A stretch of 32,364 nt of DNA, from positions 9,246 through 41,609 of the forward strand of contig MGFD01000030.1 of the NCBI GenBank assembly GCA_001791715.1, read 5' to 3'. The notes below the pieces were generated by a model. The model had not been told where the DNA came from and searched no databases. It saw nothing but the letters and a program-made list of their open reading frames with translations. Made by a program: the position numbers and the translations under genes. This DNA is from Candidatus Uhrbacteria bacterium RIFOXYB2_FULL_45_11. Its GTDB lineage: Bacteria; Patescibacteriota; Patescibacteriia; UBA9934; GWF2-40-263. Shown in pieces: positions 1,181-31,618 of this stretch. Every line of letters begins with the position of its first letter. The first letter of the stretch is position 1.

Positions 1181-1726
1181 TTAATGGTGATGATGCTCAA
1201 ATTCAGGAGCATCTGTTTGATACGTAAGCGTCACGATTCCGTTTTCTCGTTCTTGTTTTGATGTGAATGTCAGCTTCTCCAAAAAATCATCTTCCGCAAA
1301 CACACGTTTTCCTTCACCAACAAGAACGGGTTCGATGTTTAAAATGATTTCGTTGATCAGATGTTCTTTTAAGAACGCTGTGTTCACTTGAGAGCCGCCG
1401 CACACAAACGCGTGATCAAAACCGGATTCTGCAAGAAAGTGCATGGCTTCATGAGGGGAGGGAAGCACGACGAATTCGGGCGGAACTTCCATGTTCACAT
1501 CATTTGAAAGAATAATTTTTGTGACACCGAGTAAATCATCAAATCCATTATGATCCGTCCAGTTCATGACCGCTTCATAGGTTTTTCGACCAAAGATGAC
1601 GTTGCCATACATGTGTGCGAAGCGGACATAATCCGCCCAGTGTGCCATCGATAAAAAATCCTCCTCACCGTCTGGGCGAGCAATGAAGCCGTTGAGGGAC
1701 ATGGCCATGAAAAGGGTGGTGCGCAT
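1181..1726 (-). CDS. dihydrofolate reductase-like protein (RibD C-terminal domain family)
   Basis: From ATG 1726: MRTTLFMAMSLNGFIARPDGEEDF...FGRKTYE...VCGGSQV, typical of RibD_C/DHFR-like proteins. The 39 upstream codons in the ORF track run through a repeat element and were dropped. The protein ends in a natural HHHH. Confidence 0.75.
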   Translation of the reverse strand: MRTTLFMAMSLNGFIARPDGEEDFLSMAHWADYVRFAHMYGNVIFGRKTYEAVMNWTDHNGFDDLLGVTKIILSNDVNMEVPPEFVVLPSPHEAMHFLAESGFDHAFVCGGSQVNTAFLKEHLINEIILNIEPVLVGEGKRVFAEDDFLEKLTFTSKQERENGIVTLTYQTDAPEFEHHHH

Positions 1727-1808
1727 AGGGGAAGGTTTGAAATGTCGGAAACCTGCCTGCCGGCAGGCAGGGGTCGGAGAGGTTTGAATGTCGGAAAGGT
1801 CGAGGTGT
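1727..1808 (-). repeat. leader element H1: 9-nt units (TCGGAAAGG / TTTGAAATG family) flanking a perfect 20-nt palindrome, directly abutting the ATG
   Basis: The + strand reads cat|AGGGGAAGG|TTTGAAATG|TCGGAAACC, then CCTGCCTGCCGGCAGGCAGG (1752-1771), then TCGGAGAGG|TTTGAATG|TCGGAAAGG|TCGAGGTGT. The same units occur at 25646-25681. Confidence 0.8.
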
Positions 1809-1814
1809 GAGGGG

Positions 1815-1820
1815 ATTATA
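1815..1820 (-). promoter_or_regulatory. candidate -10 box (TATAAT) for the DHFR-like gene
   Basis: The reverse complement of attata at 1815-1820 is a perfect TATAAT. A weak -35 (GTGCAA) lies 17 nt upstream. This would make H1 the whole 5' UTR. Confidence 0.35.
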
Positions 1821-1884: not shown

Positions 1885-1912
1885 TAAAAAATACCTCTTA
1901 GAACAGAGGTAT
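1885..1912 (-). terminator. rho-independent terminator after the M15 peptidase gene
   Basis: Minus strand: ATACCTCT-GTTCTA-AGAGGTAT followed by T6, directly after the TGA stop. Confidence 0.7.
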
Positions 1913-2442
1913 CAGGAATGCACTTCGTTTTTTTGAAAGTGCTGGTAGTCTTTGCGATCTGTCCACCGTCCGCCCCATTCCCATCCGAATTGTTCGAATG
2001 TTCGGACTACGATATCTCCATCAAGAATTGTTCCGGGTTGCAGAGGATTGTATGTAGACGTTTCTGGATGAACGGAACCGTCAATCGCAATGTATGGATT
2101 TTGCATCGGGTTTATATCAATTGCACGACCAAAGGAATGAATCGATAACCGATTGGTTAGGTGTATGGGCCGGTAATTGAACGCTGACGAATTGTTGTCG
2201 TCTGTGGATCGTTCGTCCGACCAATTGTATTTGGAGATCGGAATCATTTTTTCGATCGGAAATTTCGCTTCAAAGATGATACGGAAAATTTCCCGCACTT
2301 CATTCGCAAGGTCATTGCATACCACGAGTTGTCCGACATGTTCTTGTTCATCAAATCCCCAGTAGGGAATGGACAGTAACACCATTTGTAAACGTATGTT
2401 GTCCGGAGCAAGAGTTCCGTTCAACGCTTCGATGAGTGTCAT
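1912..2442 (-). CDS. M15-family zinc metallopeptidase (VanY / L-Ala-D-Glu peptidase-like cell-wall hydrolase)
   Basis: The ATG at 2442 is preceded by AAGGAG 7 nt upstream. Motifs: SIHSFGRAIDIN and FGWEWGGRW..KDYQHF. The 67-codon N-terminal extension in the ORF track reads through repeat R1 and was rejected. Confidence 0.8.
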   Translation of the reverse strand: MTLIEALNGTLAPDNIRLQMVLLSIPYWGFDEQEHVGQLVVCNDLANEVREIFRIIFEAKFPIEKMIPISKYNWSDERSTDDNNSSAFNYRPIHLTNRLSIHSFGRAIDINPMQNPYIAIDGSVHPETSTYNPLQPGTILDGDIVVRTFEQFGWEWGGRWTDRKDYQHFQKNEVHS

Positions 2443-2567
2443 GTGAGGTCTCCTTGGTTGGTTTGTAAAATATGCACTTAGACTCTTGTGATATTTTGTT
2501 GCATTGTTTCCGATCGCACAATAGAAGTTTTGAATAAATTGTGCAATAGCTTCGTTTTGAGCTTGAT

Positions 2568-2665
2568 GGAGAGTGTGAGATCGGAGGTCTCGCCCAACAT
2601 CCCGCTTCGCGATCTGTCCAAACCTTCGGTTTGGCTCCGCCAATAAAAAACACCTAATGTAAATA
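2568..2665 (+). repeat. R1: copy 1 of a structured tRNA-like repeat
   Basis: GGAGAGTGTGAGATCGGAGGTCTCGCCCAACATCCCGCTTCGCGATCTGTCCAAACCTTCGGTTTGGCTCCGCCA plus about 20 nt of trailer. Nearly identical to 3616-3710. It contains three hairpins, including CCAAACC-TTCG-GGTTTGG. Confidence 0.85.
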
Positions 2666-3814: not shown

Positions 3815-4058
3815 GTAAATTTTCAATGAGTCGCTTGTTTCTGAATGCCTGTCCTGAACCTGATTTGAGATATGTCTCAAATTGTCTTGCTTGAATCCTT
3901 GAGGGGAATGCGCAGTACCAAATAAGCATAACGGGCCTAAGGTTCTTTGTTGATTCTGCTTTCCCAATCTGGTGTTCTTCGAGTCTTCTTTTTAAATCTG
4001 GAGTACAACCTGTGTAGATTGAACTGTTCGATAATTTGAGAAGATAAACGTAGTACAT
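3762..4058 (-). CDS. small GIY-YIG nuclease-domain protein (YhbQ/UPF0213-like)
   Basis: MYYVYLLKLSNSSIYTGCTPDLKRRLEEHQ... from ATG 4058 (the ORF track starts at TTG 4067). The last 17 codons and the stop lie inside tRNA-Ser(UGA). Confidence 0.8.
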   Translation of the reverse strand: MYYVYLLKLSNSSIYTGCTPDLKRRLEEHQIGKAESTKNLRPVMLIWYCAFPSRIQARQFETYLKSGSGQAFRNKRLIENLRRGGRVVDGNSLENCRS

Positions 4059-4134
4059 ATTGGCCAAAGGCCACCCGAAACTTCAACAGATCATCAACTC
4101 TCTTCGCGTCACCCTTCGCCAAGGCTTCGGGTGA

Positions 4135-4179
4135 CACCCTACACTTCAACAATGGTAAACACTGTTGAAGTGTAGGGTG
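4135..4179 (-). terminator. perfect 17-bp hairpin directly after tRNA-Ser(GCU), overlapping its terminal CA
   Basis: caccctacacttcaaca (4135-4151) pairs with tgttgaagtgtagggtg (4163-4179), 17 of 17 positions, with an 11-nt loop. A second hairpin, gtcaccc/gggtgac, lies at 4108-4135. Confidence 0.6.
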
Positions 4180-25636: not shown

Positions 25637-25743
25637 AGGGGAATGTTGGAAAGGTTTGAAATGTCGGAAAGGTCGGAAAGGAAACGTTGTAAAAACGTTT
25701 TGGATTACCTTTCAAACATTTCAGACCTTTCCGACCTTTCAGA
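25637..25743 (-). repeat. leader element H5: four plus four inverted 9-nt units (TCGGAAAGG family), abutting the lemA ATG
   Basis: AGGGGAATG|TTGGAAAGG|TTTGAAATG|TCGGAAAGG|TCGGAAAGG, then a 26-nt spacer (AAACGTT-GTAAA-AACGTTT), then CCTTTCAAA|CATTTCAGA|CCTTTCCGA|CCTTTCAGA. Confidence 0.85.
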
Positions 25744-25760
25744 CTAAGTATTACGTTTAA

Positions 25761-30431: not shown

Positions 30432-30459
30432 AGCCGAGCCTGTGAGGGCTTGGCTTTTT
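30432..30459 (+). terminator. terminator hairpin T1 (identical copy at 31590)
   Basis: agccgagcc-tgtgag-ggcttggct followed by T-run. Confidence 0.75.
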
Positions 30460-31589: not shown

Positions 31590-31618
31590 AGCCGAGCCTG
31601 TGAGGGCTTGGCTTTTTT
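31590..31618 (+). terminator. terminator hairpin T2 (identical to T1)
   Basis: agccgagcctgtgagggcttggctttttt. Confidence 0.75.

What the first reader, a model, noticed from the sequence alone, without database searches (positions are those of the whole stretch)
1727..1820. The same 9-nt units, 24 kb from the lemA copy, here as direct repeats flanking a perfect 20-nt palindrome in the DHFR-like leader
Between a perfect TATAAT (complement of 1815-1820) and the ATG at 1726, the minus-strand leader reads ...CCTTTCCGA|CATTCAAA|CCTCTCCGA, then CCTGCCTGCCGGCAGGCAGG, then TTTCCGA|CATTTCAAA|CCTTCCCCT-ATG. The TCGGAAAGG and TTTGAAATG units are those of the lemA leader (25646-25681), in the same orientation relative to the gene and in the same 9-nt phase with the ATG. 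Here the distal inverted array is replaced by a GC-rich perfect palindrome. This variant suggests a modular element: a unit array plus an interchangeable hairpin.
Basis: partly seen in the sequence, partly recalled or inferred. Interest (0 to 1): 0.6.

Follow-up and report, generated by a model that had tools for sequence, protein, structure and literature searches.

The report
Mobile 20-base palindrome nested in repeat leader
The stretch in front of this reductase gene is two unrelated kinds of tiny repeated DNA, one inside the other; the inner one is a 20-base palindrome missing from a near-identical strain yet found letter for letter in many bacterial phyla and phages, so it behaves like very small mobile DNA and not a gene switch.

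Summary
Between a perfect TATAAT (1820-1815, minus strand) and the ATG (1726) lie five 8-9-nt units of the lemA-leader family and a perfect 20-nt palindrome (1752-1771). The two leaders share an exact 18-mer in the same 9-nt phase, far above chance.

The "array plus interchangeable hairpin" reading is only partly right.
- Three congeners keep the same -10 box just 9 nt from the ATG. The whole ~79-nt block is therefore an insertion into a leaderless-type promoter.
- A 99%-identical strain, seen in three groundwater samples, has an unbroken array. It lacks exactly the 20 nt and shows no target duplication.
- The two families are distributed independently among relatives. The array is frequent in the window's own genome and three relatives. 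The palindrome is in 17 of 41.
- The exact 20-mer occurs in at least 120 stretches across many phyla (about 0.5 expected) and in 35 viral stretches. It splits tandem arrays, other hairpin repeats and decoy tRNA fragments beside mini GIY-YIG genes.

Best reading: nested selfish or neutral repeats that create an SD-less 5' UTR of about 80 nt. The closest known analogues are cyanobacterial STRR arrays and "very small mobile repeated elements". The enzyme that moves the palindrome and its effect on expression are untested.

The parts
1815..1820 (-). -10 box TATAAT of the RibD_C/DHFR-like gene. It is the same box as TTATAAT in the orthologous loci of G006, G002 and G007, where it lies only 9 nt from the ATG.
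   Evidence: Sequence; orthologous upstream regions. -10-like hexamers peak at 8-9 nt from the ATG genome-wide.
1807..1814 (-). CCCCTCAC, the remnant of the ancestral short leader. It aligns with CCAATCAC in G002 and CCCCATAC in G006.
   Evidence: aligned by eye because MAFFT misplaces the insertion.
1728..1806 (-). A block of about 79 nt that is inserted relative to the congeners. It consists of a 7-nt lead-in, the 9-nt-unit array and the nested palindrome.
   Evidence: 88 nt lie between the -10 box and the ATG here, against 9 nt in G006, G002 and G007.
1774..1799 (-). Promoter-side part of the array: CCTTTCCGA, CATTCAAA, CCTCTCCGA. It carries 5 of the 8 differences between the two strain alleles.
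   Evidence: One search lists the differences at 1775, 1789, 1794, 1797 and 1798. One search shows L021 reading CTCTTTCGA CCTTCAAA CCTCTCCAA.
1752..1771 (.). Perfect 20-nt palindrome CCTGCCTGCCGGCAGGCAGG. It is a discrete insertion between CC (1773-1772) and TTTCCGA (1751-1745) of one array unit. As RNA it forms an 8-bp GC stem with a 4-nt loop.
   Evidence: One search reports 'left out 20 at 1752' in contigs of X1, X3 and X5. One search shows the empty allele. Also: 15 copies in this genome; at least 120 stretches across phyla; fold.
1727..1751 (-). Gene-side part of the array: (CC)TTTCCGA, CATTTCAAA and the terminal unit CCTTCCCCT, which abuts the ATG. It contains no Shine-Dalgarno motif.
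   Evidence: The same terminal unit, CCTT(C/T)CCCT-ATG, ends other copies of the array.
1181..1726 (-). RibD_C / DHFR-like reductase gene of 181 aa.
   Evidence: Pfam PF01872 at 1.3e-15 and PF00186 at 7e-6. Orthologues are 77-87% identical in four congeners.
1890..1913 (-). Terminator-like hairpin plus T-run after the upstream Peptidase_M15_4 gene. It marks the reductase gene as its own transcription unit.
25639..25744 (-). Partner copy in the lemA leader: a sense array at 25639-25681 and its inverted arm at 25707-25744.
   Evidence: (I5, I23).

Best explanation
The leader is a two-layer nest of independent small repeats and not a dedicated regulator.

Layer 1 is the array. It belongs to a family of degenerate 9-nt tandem units, C[C/A]TTTC[C/A][G/A]A. 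In this genus the family occupies the short spacers just upstream of start codons. Several copies run exactly from a TAA stop to the next ATG and end in CCTT(C/T)CCCT-ATG. Here the array was inserted between a conserved -10 box and the ATG of a gene whose orthologues have leaderless-type spacing of 9 nt. Growth or shrinkage by whole units keeps the 9-nt phase with the ATG automatically (inferred).

Layer 2 is the palindrome. It is a self-contained 20-nt perfect palindrome that entered one unit of the array as a discrete piece, without target-site duplication. This event is recent enough to still be polymorphic among co-occurring strains. The same 20-mer is dispersed through many bacterial phyla and phages. 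It is typically found inside tandem arrays, in the tips of other hairpin repeats, and in the D-loop of decoy tRNA fragments.

Inferred mechanism for the palindrome: it behaves as very small mobile DNA. It is probably handled as a single-strand hairpin by an enzyme acting in trans, or copied between arrays by recombination.

Consequence (inferred, not measured): the promoter now drives an SD-less, C/U-rich 5' UTR of about 80 nt, with one 8-bp GC hairpin lying 25-44 nt before the AUG. This is probably close to neutral, because most genes of this genome start without a Shine-Dalgarno sequence.
For: - The -10 box is orthologous. Its distance to the ATG is 9 nt in G006, G002 and G007 and 88 nt here. 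G004 has a different tandem-repeat filler at the same spot.
- An empty site exists. Metagenome contig L021 (99% aa identity) and contigs from three groundwater samples lack exactly 1752-1771 and read a continuous array. A contig of run X7 matches the filled allele exactly over 1758-1999.
- The two families are independent among 41 genomes. The 24-nt array pattern matches at 35 places in G000, 14 in G004, 8 in G013, 6 in G002 and 1 in G006, and nowhere else. Palindrome counts are 58 in G003, 15 each in G000 and G007, and 0 in G006 and G001. G003 and G007 have no arrays.
- This genome holds 15 palindrome copies, in a symmetric 20-nt form and an oriented 21-nt form. They are nested in four different repeat families and lie in frame in genes.
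- The exact 20-mer occurs in at least 120 stretches of genome contigs from many phyla, against about 0.5 expected in 596 Gb. It also occurs in 35 viral stretches. The flanks are not conserved.
- Four tRNA cassettes each show the exact 20-mer in the decoy fragment, while the intact tRNA copy beside it serves as the empty site.
- Arrays run flush from TAA to ATG. They are conserved at orthologous junctions in G000, G002 and G004, with turnover of individual units.
- Only about 21% of starts have an SD-like motif, and T occupies position -1 in 61-63%.
- Only the palindrome folds in the leader; the overall z-score is -1.3.
Against: - No transcript data exist, so the TSS and any effect on expression are unknown.
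- Polarity cannot be rooted at this site. The outgroups lack the array altogether, so insertion and precise excision cannot be distinguished here.
- The left junction of the filled allele (about 1745-1760) is supported only by the window assembly. X7 covers the right junction only.
- Two other palindrome copies (C25, C9) are fixed in all strains examined, so current mobility is shown at only one site.
- No mobilising enzyme is identified. Y1 transposases do not correlate with the palindrome. GIY-YIG genes adjoin it in only a few loci.
- Arrays conserved at orthologous junctions across species could mean the array layer is selected and not neutral.
Confidence: 0.72

Rival explanations
1. The array layer is functional. 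It would be an SD-independent translation-initiation or coupling spacer. Being unstructured, G-poor and free of start codons, the C/U-rich tract would deliver ribosomes (by standby binding or by post-termination scanning) to the next AUG. It would then be selected at stop-start junctions and in leaders. The palindrome remains a passenger. This reading is compatible with the nested-insertion history.
For: - Sense-oriented arrays end 5-19 nt before start codons, most often 9 nt. Several begin right after TAA.
- The same junctions carry arrays in G000, G002 and G004 even though the units differ.
- Most genes in this genome lack an SD motif.
- The leader is unstructured outside the palindrome.
- A similar role has been suggested, without testing, for cyanobacterial STRR repeats (PMC2670836).
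Against: - The family is absent from 36 of 41 related genomes, including congeners with the same genes.
- Copies also occur inverted, downstream of genes, and in frame inside coding regions.
- The units have no complementarity to 16S rRNA.
- The orthologous reductase genes work with a 9-nt leader.
Confidence: 0.3
2. The array plus hairpin would be one dedicated cis-regulatory 5'-UTR element, a riboregulator with an exchangeable hairpin module, controlling the reductase and lemA genes.
For: Both copies share an 18-mer, orientation and phase relative to the ATG. Both lie downstream of a promoter-like -10 box.
Against: - The block is absent from orthologous leaders in three congeners.
- The hairpin is absent from a 99%-identical strain.
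- The two modules have unrelated phylogenetic distributions.
- The family precedes unrelated genes and sits inside ORFs.
- There is no Rfam match and no significant fold beyond the palindrome.
Confidence: 0.08
3. The elements act at the DNA level as protein-binding sites. The 9-bp units would be iteron-like sites and the 20-bp palindrome an operator for a dimeric regulator or nucleoid protein.
For: A perfect 20-bp palindrome and phased short repeats are typical shapes for operators. The palindrome sequence is kept exactly across lineages.
Against: - Identical 20-mers occur in many phyla and in phages with no shared neighbouring genes.
- Copies lie inside coding regions and in tRNA fragments.
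- Copy number ranges from 0 to 58 within one genus.
- The 9-nt period does not match the helical repeat of DNA.
Confidence: 0.06
4. The palindrome difference is an assembly artefact, a false path through repeats shared with other palindrome-bearing arrays.
For: Other loci (C25, C32, C63) combine the same array family with the palindrome. The left junction is not covered by an independent contig.
Against: - The junctions here (GGAAA|P and P|GGTCGGAGAGG) differ from those of all other copies.
- An independent X7 contig spans the right junction plus the allele-specific array variants with no mismatch.
- The same clean 20-nt insertion pattern recurs in unrelated assemblies next to intact reference copies.
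Confidence: 0.03

Closest known systems
Small dispersed repeats (SDR) of Nostoc and related cyanobacteria. Source: Elhai et al. [quoted passage not shown] The citation was confirmed from reference lists. The paper is not held, so its content is recalled from memory.
   Same: These are hairpin-forming elements of 20-odd nt, with no coding capacity. They are found nested inside tandem short-unit repeats, inside other small elements and inside each other. Their mobility was inferred from clean presence/absence at otherwise matching sites.
   Different: - The sequence here is different, and the palindrome is perfect at 20 nt.
- As I recall them, SDR families are confined to some cyanobacteria. This identical 20-mer spans many phyla and phages.
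- I could not compare the sequences with SDR4-6.
Cyanobacterial STRR (short tandemly repeated repetitive) heptamer arrays
   Same: These are tandem short units in intergenic regions close to gene starts and between operon genes. They can form hairpins when inverted copies pair. Their function is unknown, with mRNA stability or translational coupling suggested (PMC2670836).
   Different: The units here are 9 nt, not 7. The arrays have a distinct terminal unit abutting the ATG. The host lineage is Patescibacteria, and the distribution is patchy even within one genus.
REP / REPIN elements mobilised by RAYT transposases
   Same: These are short, abundant palindromes. Their copy number differs sharply between close relatives, they sometimes lie inside genes, and they are probably handled as single-strand hairpins (PMC3733652, PMC3116915).
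   Different: - There is no GTAG or CGTC tag, and the flanks are not conserved at all.
- There is no link to Y1/RAYT genes.
- The copies are single and not organised as doublets.
Neisseria dRS3 / NTS repeats and the Ssn family of single-domain GIY-YIG ssDNA nucleases (PMC11893778)
   Same: dRS3 is a 20-bp palindromic repeat in many copies. Hairpin repeats are associated with tiny GIY-YIG genes. Here the 20-mer sits directly upstream of mini GIY-YIG genes in at least three cassettes.
   Different: - NTS carries a conserved oriented flank needed for cleavage; this palindrome has none.
- It lies on one side of the nuclease gene only, inside a decoy tRNA fragment.
- Most copies are far from any GIY-YIG gene.
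- No biochemistry has been done.
Haemophilus influenzae hmw1A 5'-UTR heptamer SSR hairpin processed by RNase III (PMC12721329)
   Same: A tandem short-unit repeat is transcribed as part of a 5' UTR between the promoter and the start codon.
   Different: In hmw1A the repeat number varies and tunes expression through a long hairpin. Here the two alleles have the same unit number, the array is direct with no complementary arm, and the only structure is the inserted palindrome.

Membership tests
REP/REPIN (RAYT-mobilised) | Short palindrome of 20-40 bp in many copies | tested here: met
   A 20-nt perfect palindrome with 15 copies in G000 and 58 in G003.
REP/REPIN (RAYT-mobilised) | Conserved unpaired GTAG or CGTC tag at one end (PMC3733652) | tested here: not met
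   The flanks of 124 copies show no conserved tetranucleotide. The only bias is A at 41% and T at 9% at position -1.
REP/REPIN (RAYT-mobilised) | Cognate RAYT (Y1 transposase) gene flanked by the repeats, with co-occurrence | tested here: not met
   G007 has 15 palindromes and no Y1_Tnp gene; G015 has no palindromes and 7 Y1_Tnp genes. The two Y1 genes of G000 (C19, C47) lie on contigs without palindromes.
Very small mobile repeats (SDR type, Elhai 2008) | About 20-27 nt, hairpin-forming and non-coding | tested here: met
   The element is 20 or 21 nt and forms an 8-bp stem. The defining feature itself is recalled from memory.
Very small mobile repeats (SDR type, Elhai 2008) | Nested in tandem short-unit repeats and in other small elements | tested here: met
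   It lies inside 9-nt, 7-nt and CT-rich arrays, inside BoxC-like palindromes and inside the GTCATTGCGAGG-type element.
Very small mobile repeats (SDR type, Elhai 2008) | Clean presence/absence at otherwise identical sites | tested here: met
   There is a strain-level 20-nt indel at 1752-1771. In four cases a decoy tRNA fragment carries the palindrome while the intact tRNA copy does not.
Very small mobile repeats (SDR type, Elhai 2008) | Sequence relationship to SDR4, SDR5 or SDR6 | not testable with these tools
   The paper and its sequences are not held.
STRR-like tandem arrays | Short tandem units, intergenic, near gene boundaries, able to pair with inverted copies | tested here: met
   There are 32 arrays. 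Several run from TAA to ATG, and several occur as inverted pairs. The unit is 9 nt and not 7.
Ssn / SRM system | Hairpin repeat with a conserved oriented flank, lying on both sides of a single-domain GIY-YIG gene | tested here: inconclusive
   The palindrome lies immediately upstream of mini GIY-YIG genes in G003:C29, G007:C1 and L065, on one side only. Only 1 of 80 random loci shows this, and there is no oriented flank.
Ssn / SRM system | Site-specific ssDNA cleavage at the repeat | not testable with these tools
   This needs purified protein and oligonucleotides.
Phase-variable SSR 5' UTR (hmw1A type) | Repeat-number variation between strains, coupled to expression | tested here: not met
   The two alleles have the same number of units. 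They differ by the palindrome and 5 substitutions.
Intrinsic terminator / attenuator | GC hairpin followed by a U-run | tested here: not met
   The scan calls the hairpin at 1913-1890 but not the palindrome, whose tail is UUUCCGAC.
Curated RNA families (Rfam 15) | Match at or above the gathering score | tested here: not met
   Only three tRNAs are found in the window.

The most novel reading that the evidence does not exclude
The 20-nt perfect palindrome CCTGCCTGCCGGCAGGCAGG would be a self-contained mobile unit, among the smallest known. It is kept letter for letter across many bacterial phyla and their phages. In this reading it is inserted precisely, without target duplication, by a hairpin-recognising enzyme acting in trans. 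Candidate enzymes are the mini GIY-YIG (Ssn-like) nucleases, whose tRNA-lodged cassettes carry the palindrome in the D-loop of their decoy tRNA fragment. The reductase leader would then show a live filled/empty polymorphism in a natural population.
Probability: 0.3. Interest if true: 0.85.

Novelty: new variant of a known kind. Interest (0 to 1): 0.6.

Why it matters
- For annotation: conspicuous repeat-plus-hairpin leaders in ultra-small (CPR) genomes should not be read as riboregulators by default. Here the whole leader is recent filler placed between a conserved promoter and the start codon.
- For translation biology: a gene appears to have gone from a 9-nt leader to an SD-less leader of about 88 nt. 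This makes a natural test case for how these bacteria start translation.
- For mobile DNA: the finding gives a clean filled/empty pair for a 20-nt palindrome that is identical across phyla and phages. I found no description of it in the searchable literature. Identifying what moves it would add a new minimal class of mobile DNA. It might also yield a hairpin-specific nuclease useful as a tool, as proposed for the Ssn enzymes.

Tried and rejected
- RAYT / Y1 transposase link: counts do not track the palindrome and the genes are not adjacent.
- rRNA-pairing enhancer: the complements of the units are absent from the 16S gene. The 16S 3' end is the canonical ...GATCACCTCCTTTCT.
- Terminator or attenuator role for the palindrome: it does not fit the consensus.
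- Rfam: no family matches.
- A new promoter inside the array: there is no -10-like hexamer 8-9 nt before the ATG; the sequence there is TTCAAA.
- RNA-seq for the TSS: only DNA runs exist.
- More alleles in other runs: none were found.
- Polymorphism at two other palindrome copies (C25, C9): both are fixed.
- Target-site motif: there is only a weak A preference at -1.
- Literature search for the 12-mer core: only irrelevant zebrafish primer hits.
- Elhai 2008 could not be opened.
- Earlier scan notes searched by sequence: nothing found.
- MAFFT alignment of the orthologous leaders misplaced the insertion, so I aligned them by eye.

Full report
**1. Observation**

On the minus strand the region reads as follows: TATAAT (1820-1815), CCCCTCACACCTCGA, CCTTTCCGA, CATTCAAA, CCTCTCCGA, CC, the perfect palindrome CCTGCCTGCCGGCAGGCAGG (1771-1752), TTTCCGA, CATTTCAAA, CCTTCCCCT, then ATG (1726-1724).

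The lemA leader reads ...CCTTTCCGA CCTTTCCGA CATTTCAAA CCTTTCCAA CATTCCCCT ATG. The two leaders share the exact 18-mer TTTCCGACATTTCAAACC. It lies 7 nt from the ATG here and 16 nt from the ATG in lemA, which is the same 9-nt phase. With up to 3 mismatches the window holds 4 matches against 0.07 expected.

The gene is a RibD_C/DHFR-like reductase. The upstream Peptidase_M15_4 gene ends in a terminator-like hairpin at 1913-1890, so the reductase gene is probably its own transcription unit.

**2. The flanking "direct repeats" are one array cut by the palindrome**

Removing the 20 nt joins CC to TTTCCGA and restores a canonical unit, CCTTTCCGA, in phase with all the others. This prediction was confirmed directly.
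- A metagenome contig encoding a 99%-identical protein (L021) reads tataatcccctcacacctcga CTCTTTCGA CCTTCAAA CCTCTCCAA CCTTTCCGA CATTTCAAA CCTTCCCCT ATG.
- Contigs from three groundwater samples (runs X1/X2, X3, X5) show "left out 20 at 1752".
- A contig of run X7 matches the window allele exactly from 1758 to 1999.

The insertion can be placed in only one way. It is exactly the palindrome, with no target-site duplication.

The two alleles also differ at 1775, 1789, 1794, 1797 and 1798. All five sites lie in the 26 nt of array on the promoter side of the palindrome. Only three differences occur in the other ~550 nt. Clustered differences also occur elsewhere between these strains, so I leave this cluster unexplained. 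It could be a recombination tract or fast array turnover.

**3. The whole block is an insertion into a leaderless-type promoter**

Four congeners carry orthologues that are 77-87% identical.
- G006 reads ...gttttttgTTATAATccccatactATG.
- G002 reads TTATAATccaatcactATG.
- G007 reads TTATAATccaatcattATG.

The sequence upstream of the box also aligns with the window. The -10 box is therefore orthologous. It sits 9 nt from the ATG in these three genomes and 88 nt from it here. G004 has a different 60-nt filler at the same spot, itself containing a tandem ATTCGTAG.

Stringent -10 hexamers peak at 8-9 nt from the ATG across this genome: 17 of 314 well-constrained starts, against about 2 per other spacing. 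This agrees with an earlier first-reader note. The block of about 79 nt thus turned a leaderless-type gene into one with a long leader. The array contains no -10-like box near the ATG.

No RNA runs exist, so the TSS is inferred and not shown.

**4. The array family**

The genome (0.88 Mb, 44.7% GC) holds 32 arrays of units fitting C[C/A]TTTC[C/A][G/A]A, against 0-1 in shuffles.
- In sense orientation they typically end 5-19 nt before a start codon, most often 9 nt. They close with a terminal unit CCTT(C/T)CCCT.
- Several begin immediately after the TAA of the preceding gene.
- Others are the inverted partners of such arrays, and several are read in frame inside genes.

Among 41 related genomes the 24-nt array pattern matches at 35 places in G000, 14 in G004, 8 in G013 (another genus), 6 in G002 and 1 in G006, and nowhere else. 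At least four junctions carry arrays in both G000 and G002 or G004, with different unit strings. Some copies have therefore persisted through speciation while their units turned over.

The genome relies little on Shine-Dalgarno pairing. SD-like 4-mers occur before about 21% of ATG starts, and T occupies position -1 in 61-63%. This holds even though the 16S 3' end is canonical. The units have no complement in the 16S gene. An SD-less C/U-rich leader is thus ordinary for this organism. That fits either neutrality or a role as an unstructured spacer.

**5. The palindrome family**

The 20-mer, allowing up to 2 mismatches in its 18-nt core, occurs 15 times in this genome. It comes in a symmetric 20-nt form and in an oriented 21-nt form, CCTTGCCTGCCGGCAGGCAGG, seen in both orientations. 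An oriented variant implies copying and not convergence.

Copies lie inside the 9-nt arrays (C25, C32, C63 and this one), a TACAGAT array (C9), CT-rich arrays (C23, C64) and the loops of BoxC-like palindromes (C46, C48). In genes they are read in frame as LPAGRQ, for example in TsaD as ...NLSLPAGRQSDLSDISNLSN....

Counts in relatives are patchy and unrelated to the array counts: G003 has 58, G007 has 15, G012 has 5, G002 and G010 have 4 each, and G006 and G001 have 0. The backwards control gives 0-1.

About 0.5 is expected in 596 Gb. The hosts include Parcubacteria, Saccharibacteria, WWE3, Omnitrophota, Bacteroidota (including cultured isolates), Planctomycetota, Gamma- and Deltaproteobacteria, Bdellovibrionales, Chloroflexi and others. 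It also occurs in 35 stretches of viral contigs.

The flanks are not conserved. The palindrome often splits local tandem arrays or other hairpin repeats. In 35% of copies the two 30-nt flanks share a 6-mer, against 21% of controls. Nine percent of copies lie within 200 nt of a tRNA gene.

In four cassettes the exact 20-mer sits in the D-loop of a duplicated 5' tRNA fragment, while the intact tRNA a few hundred nt away gives the uninterrupted sequence. The four are G003 tRNA-Leu, G007 tRNA-Asn, a WWE3 tRNA-Lys and a Patescibacterial tRNA-Met locus. In three of them a mini GIY-YIG gene follows directly. Earlier notes of this scan described a GC palindrome in such cassettes. I confirm the architecture for these four loci only.

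**6. Mechanism**

Shown:
- Two independent repeat families are nested here.
- The palindrome is a discrete 20-nt unit that is present or absent between near-identical strains.
- It recurs with exact boundaries at unrelated sites.
- The block separates a conserved -10 box from the ATG.

Inferred:
- The palindrome is mobile DNA of the "very small" kind. It is probably handled as a single-strand hairpin by a trans-acting enzyme, or spread between arrays by recombination after DNA uptake or phage traffic.
- The array changes by whole-unit slippage, which keeps its phase with the ATG.
- The expression effect is small. As RNA, only the palindrome folds (8-bp GC stem, 25-44 nt before the AUG), and the leader as a whole is not unusually stable (z = -1.3).

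Y1/RAYT transposases do not correlate and are not adjacent. GIY-YIG genes are present in every genome examined. They adjoin the palindrome in only a few cassettes. Two other copies in this genome (C25, C9) are fixed across the strains sampled.

**7. Comparison with known systems**

- The nearest analogue of the palindrome is the cyanobacterial small dispersed repeats of Elhai et al. 2008. As I recall them, these are 21-27-nt hairpin elements nested in heptamer arrays and in each other. The citation was verified, but the paper is not held, so its content is recalled from memory.
- The nearest analogue of the array is the STRR heptamer repeat (PMC2670836).
- REP/REPIN membership fails on the GTAG/CGTC tag and on the RAYT link (PMC3733652).
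- The Neisseria dRS3/NTS-Ssn system (PMC11893778) is a functional lead and not a membership.
- The hmw1A repeat-UTR switch (PMC12721329) differs because there is no unit-number variation and no long hairpin here.
- A full-text search for the palindrome core found nothing relevant.

**8. Verdict**

The feature is real. It is best described as a young, nested insertion of two small repeat families and not a regulator. Its most interesting part is the 20-nt palindrome found across many phyla, caught here as a filled/empty polymorphism.

I classify it as a new variant of a known kind: very small mobile repeats nested in tandem-repeat arrays. Interest is 0.6. The main open points are the TSS, the expression effect, the polarity of the indel and the mobilising activity.

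Noticed in passing
L149 (G003:C29:6700-8000), L150 (G007:C1:78900-80300), L065 ~2080-2480, L043 ~4000-4165: These loci share a recurrent cassette. A duplicated 5' tRNA fragment carries the exact 20-nt palindrome in its D-loop. A mini GIY-YIG gene of about 85 aa follows (absent in L043), and then the intact tRNA (Leu, Asn, Lys, Met). The intact copy shows the uninterrupted site each time.
   Followed up: partly
G000 C63:9660-9740 (tsaD); C70:440-500 (uvrC-like); C24:7225-7270; C46:4480-4550; C48:5760-5830; C30:2000-2080: Arrays and the 21-nt palindrome variant lie in frame inside protein-coding genes. The palindrome is always read as LPAGRQ, for example TsaD ...NLSLPAGRQSDLSDISNLSN... This resembles Rickettsia palindromic elements.
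   Followed up: partly
Whole genome G000: Translation starts look largely SD-independent. SD-like 4-mers precede only about 21% of ATG starts, T occupies position -1 in 61-63%, and -10-like hexamers peak 8-9 nt before the ATG (17 of 314). The anti-SD of the 16S rRNA is nevertheless canonical.
   Followed up: partly
window 1912-2640 compared with L002 (G006) and L004 (G002): In G006 and G002 the reductase promoter directly follows a tRNA-like 71-nt repeat and a small hairpin. In this genome a Peptidase_M15_4 gene with its own terminator lies between the copy of that repeat (2568-2638) and the promoter remnant. This suggests the gene was inserted here.
   Followed up: partly
L005 (G004:C93) 391-450: The G004 orthologue has a different 60-nt filler between TATAAT and the ATG, containing a tandem ATTCGTAG ATTCGTAG. 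The gap between the -10 box and the ATG therefore seems to be a repeated landing site for short-repeat filler in this genus.
   Followed up: no
window 1774-1799: Five of the eight differences between the filled and empty alleles fall in the 26 nt of array on one side of the palindrome. This could be a co-conversion tract or array hypervariability. It is unresolved.
   Followed up: partly
L025 (G003:C1:34900-35000), L028 (G003:C7), L077 ~920-980, G000 C24:7200-7290: The palindrome is repeatedly found at the centre of another widespread hairpin element of the type GTCATTGCGAGGAGCG...CGACGAAGCAATCTC. This is a further layer of nesting.
   Followed up: no
L177 10596-11273 and L206 4880-5557 (IMG/VR contigs); L197/L204/L205 (one 29.5-kb viral contig with 6 copies): Viral contigs carry the exact 20-mer, again inside short-unit arrays (GAGAGGT type) that flank ordinary genes. 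Phages are therefore a possible route for its spread across phyla.
   Followed up: partly
window 30432-30459 and 31590-31617: An exact 28-nt repeat, AGCCGAGCCTGTGAGGGCTTGGCTTTTT (a hairpin plus T-run, terminator-like), occurs twice, 1158 nt apart.
   Followed up: no
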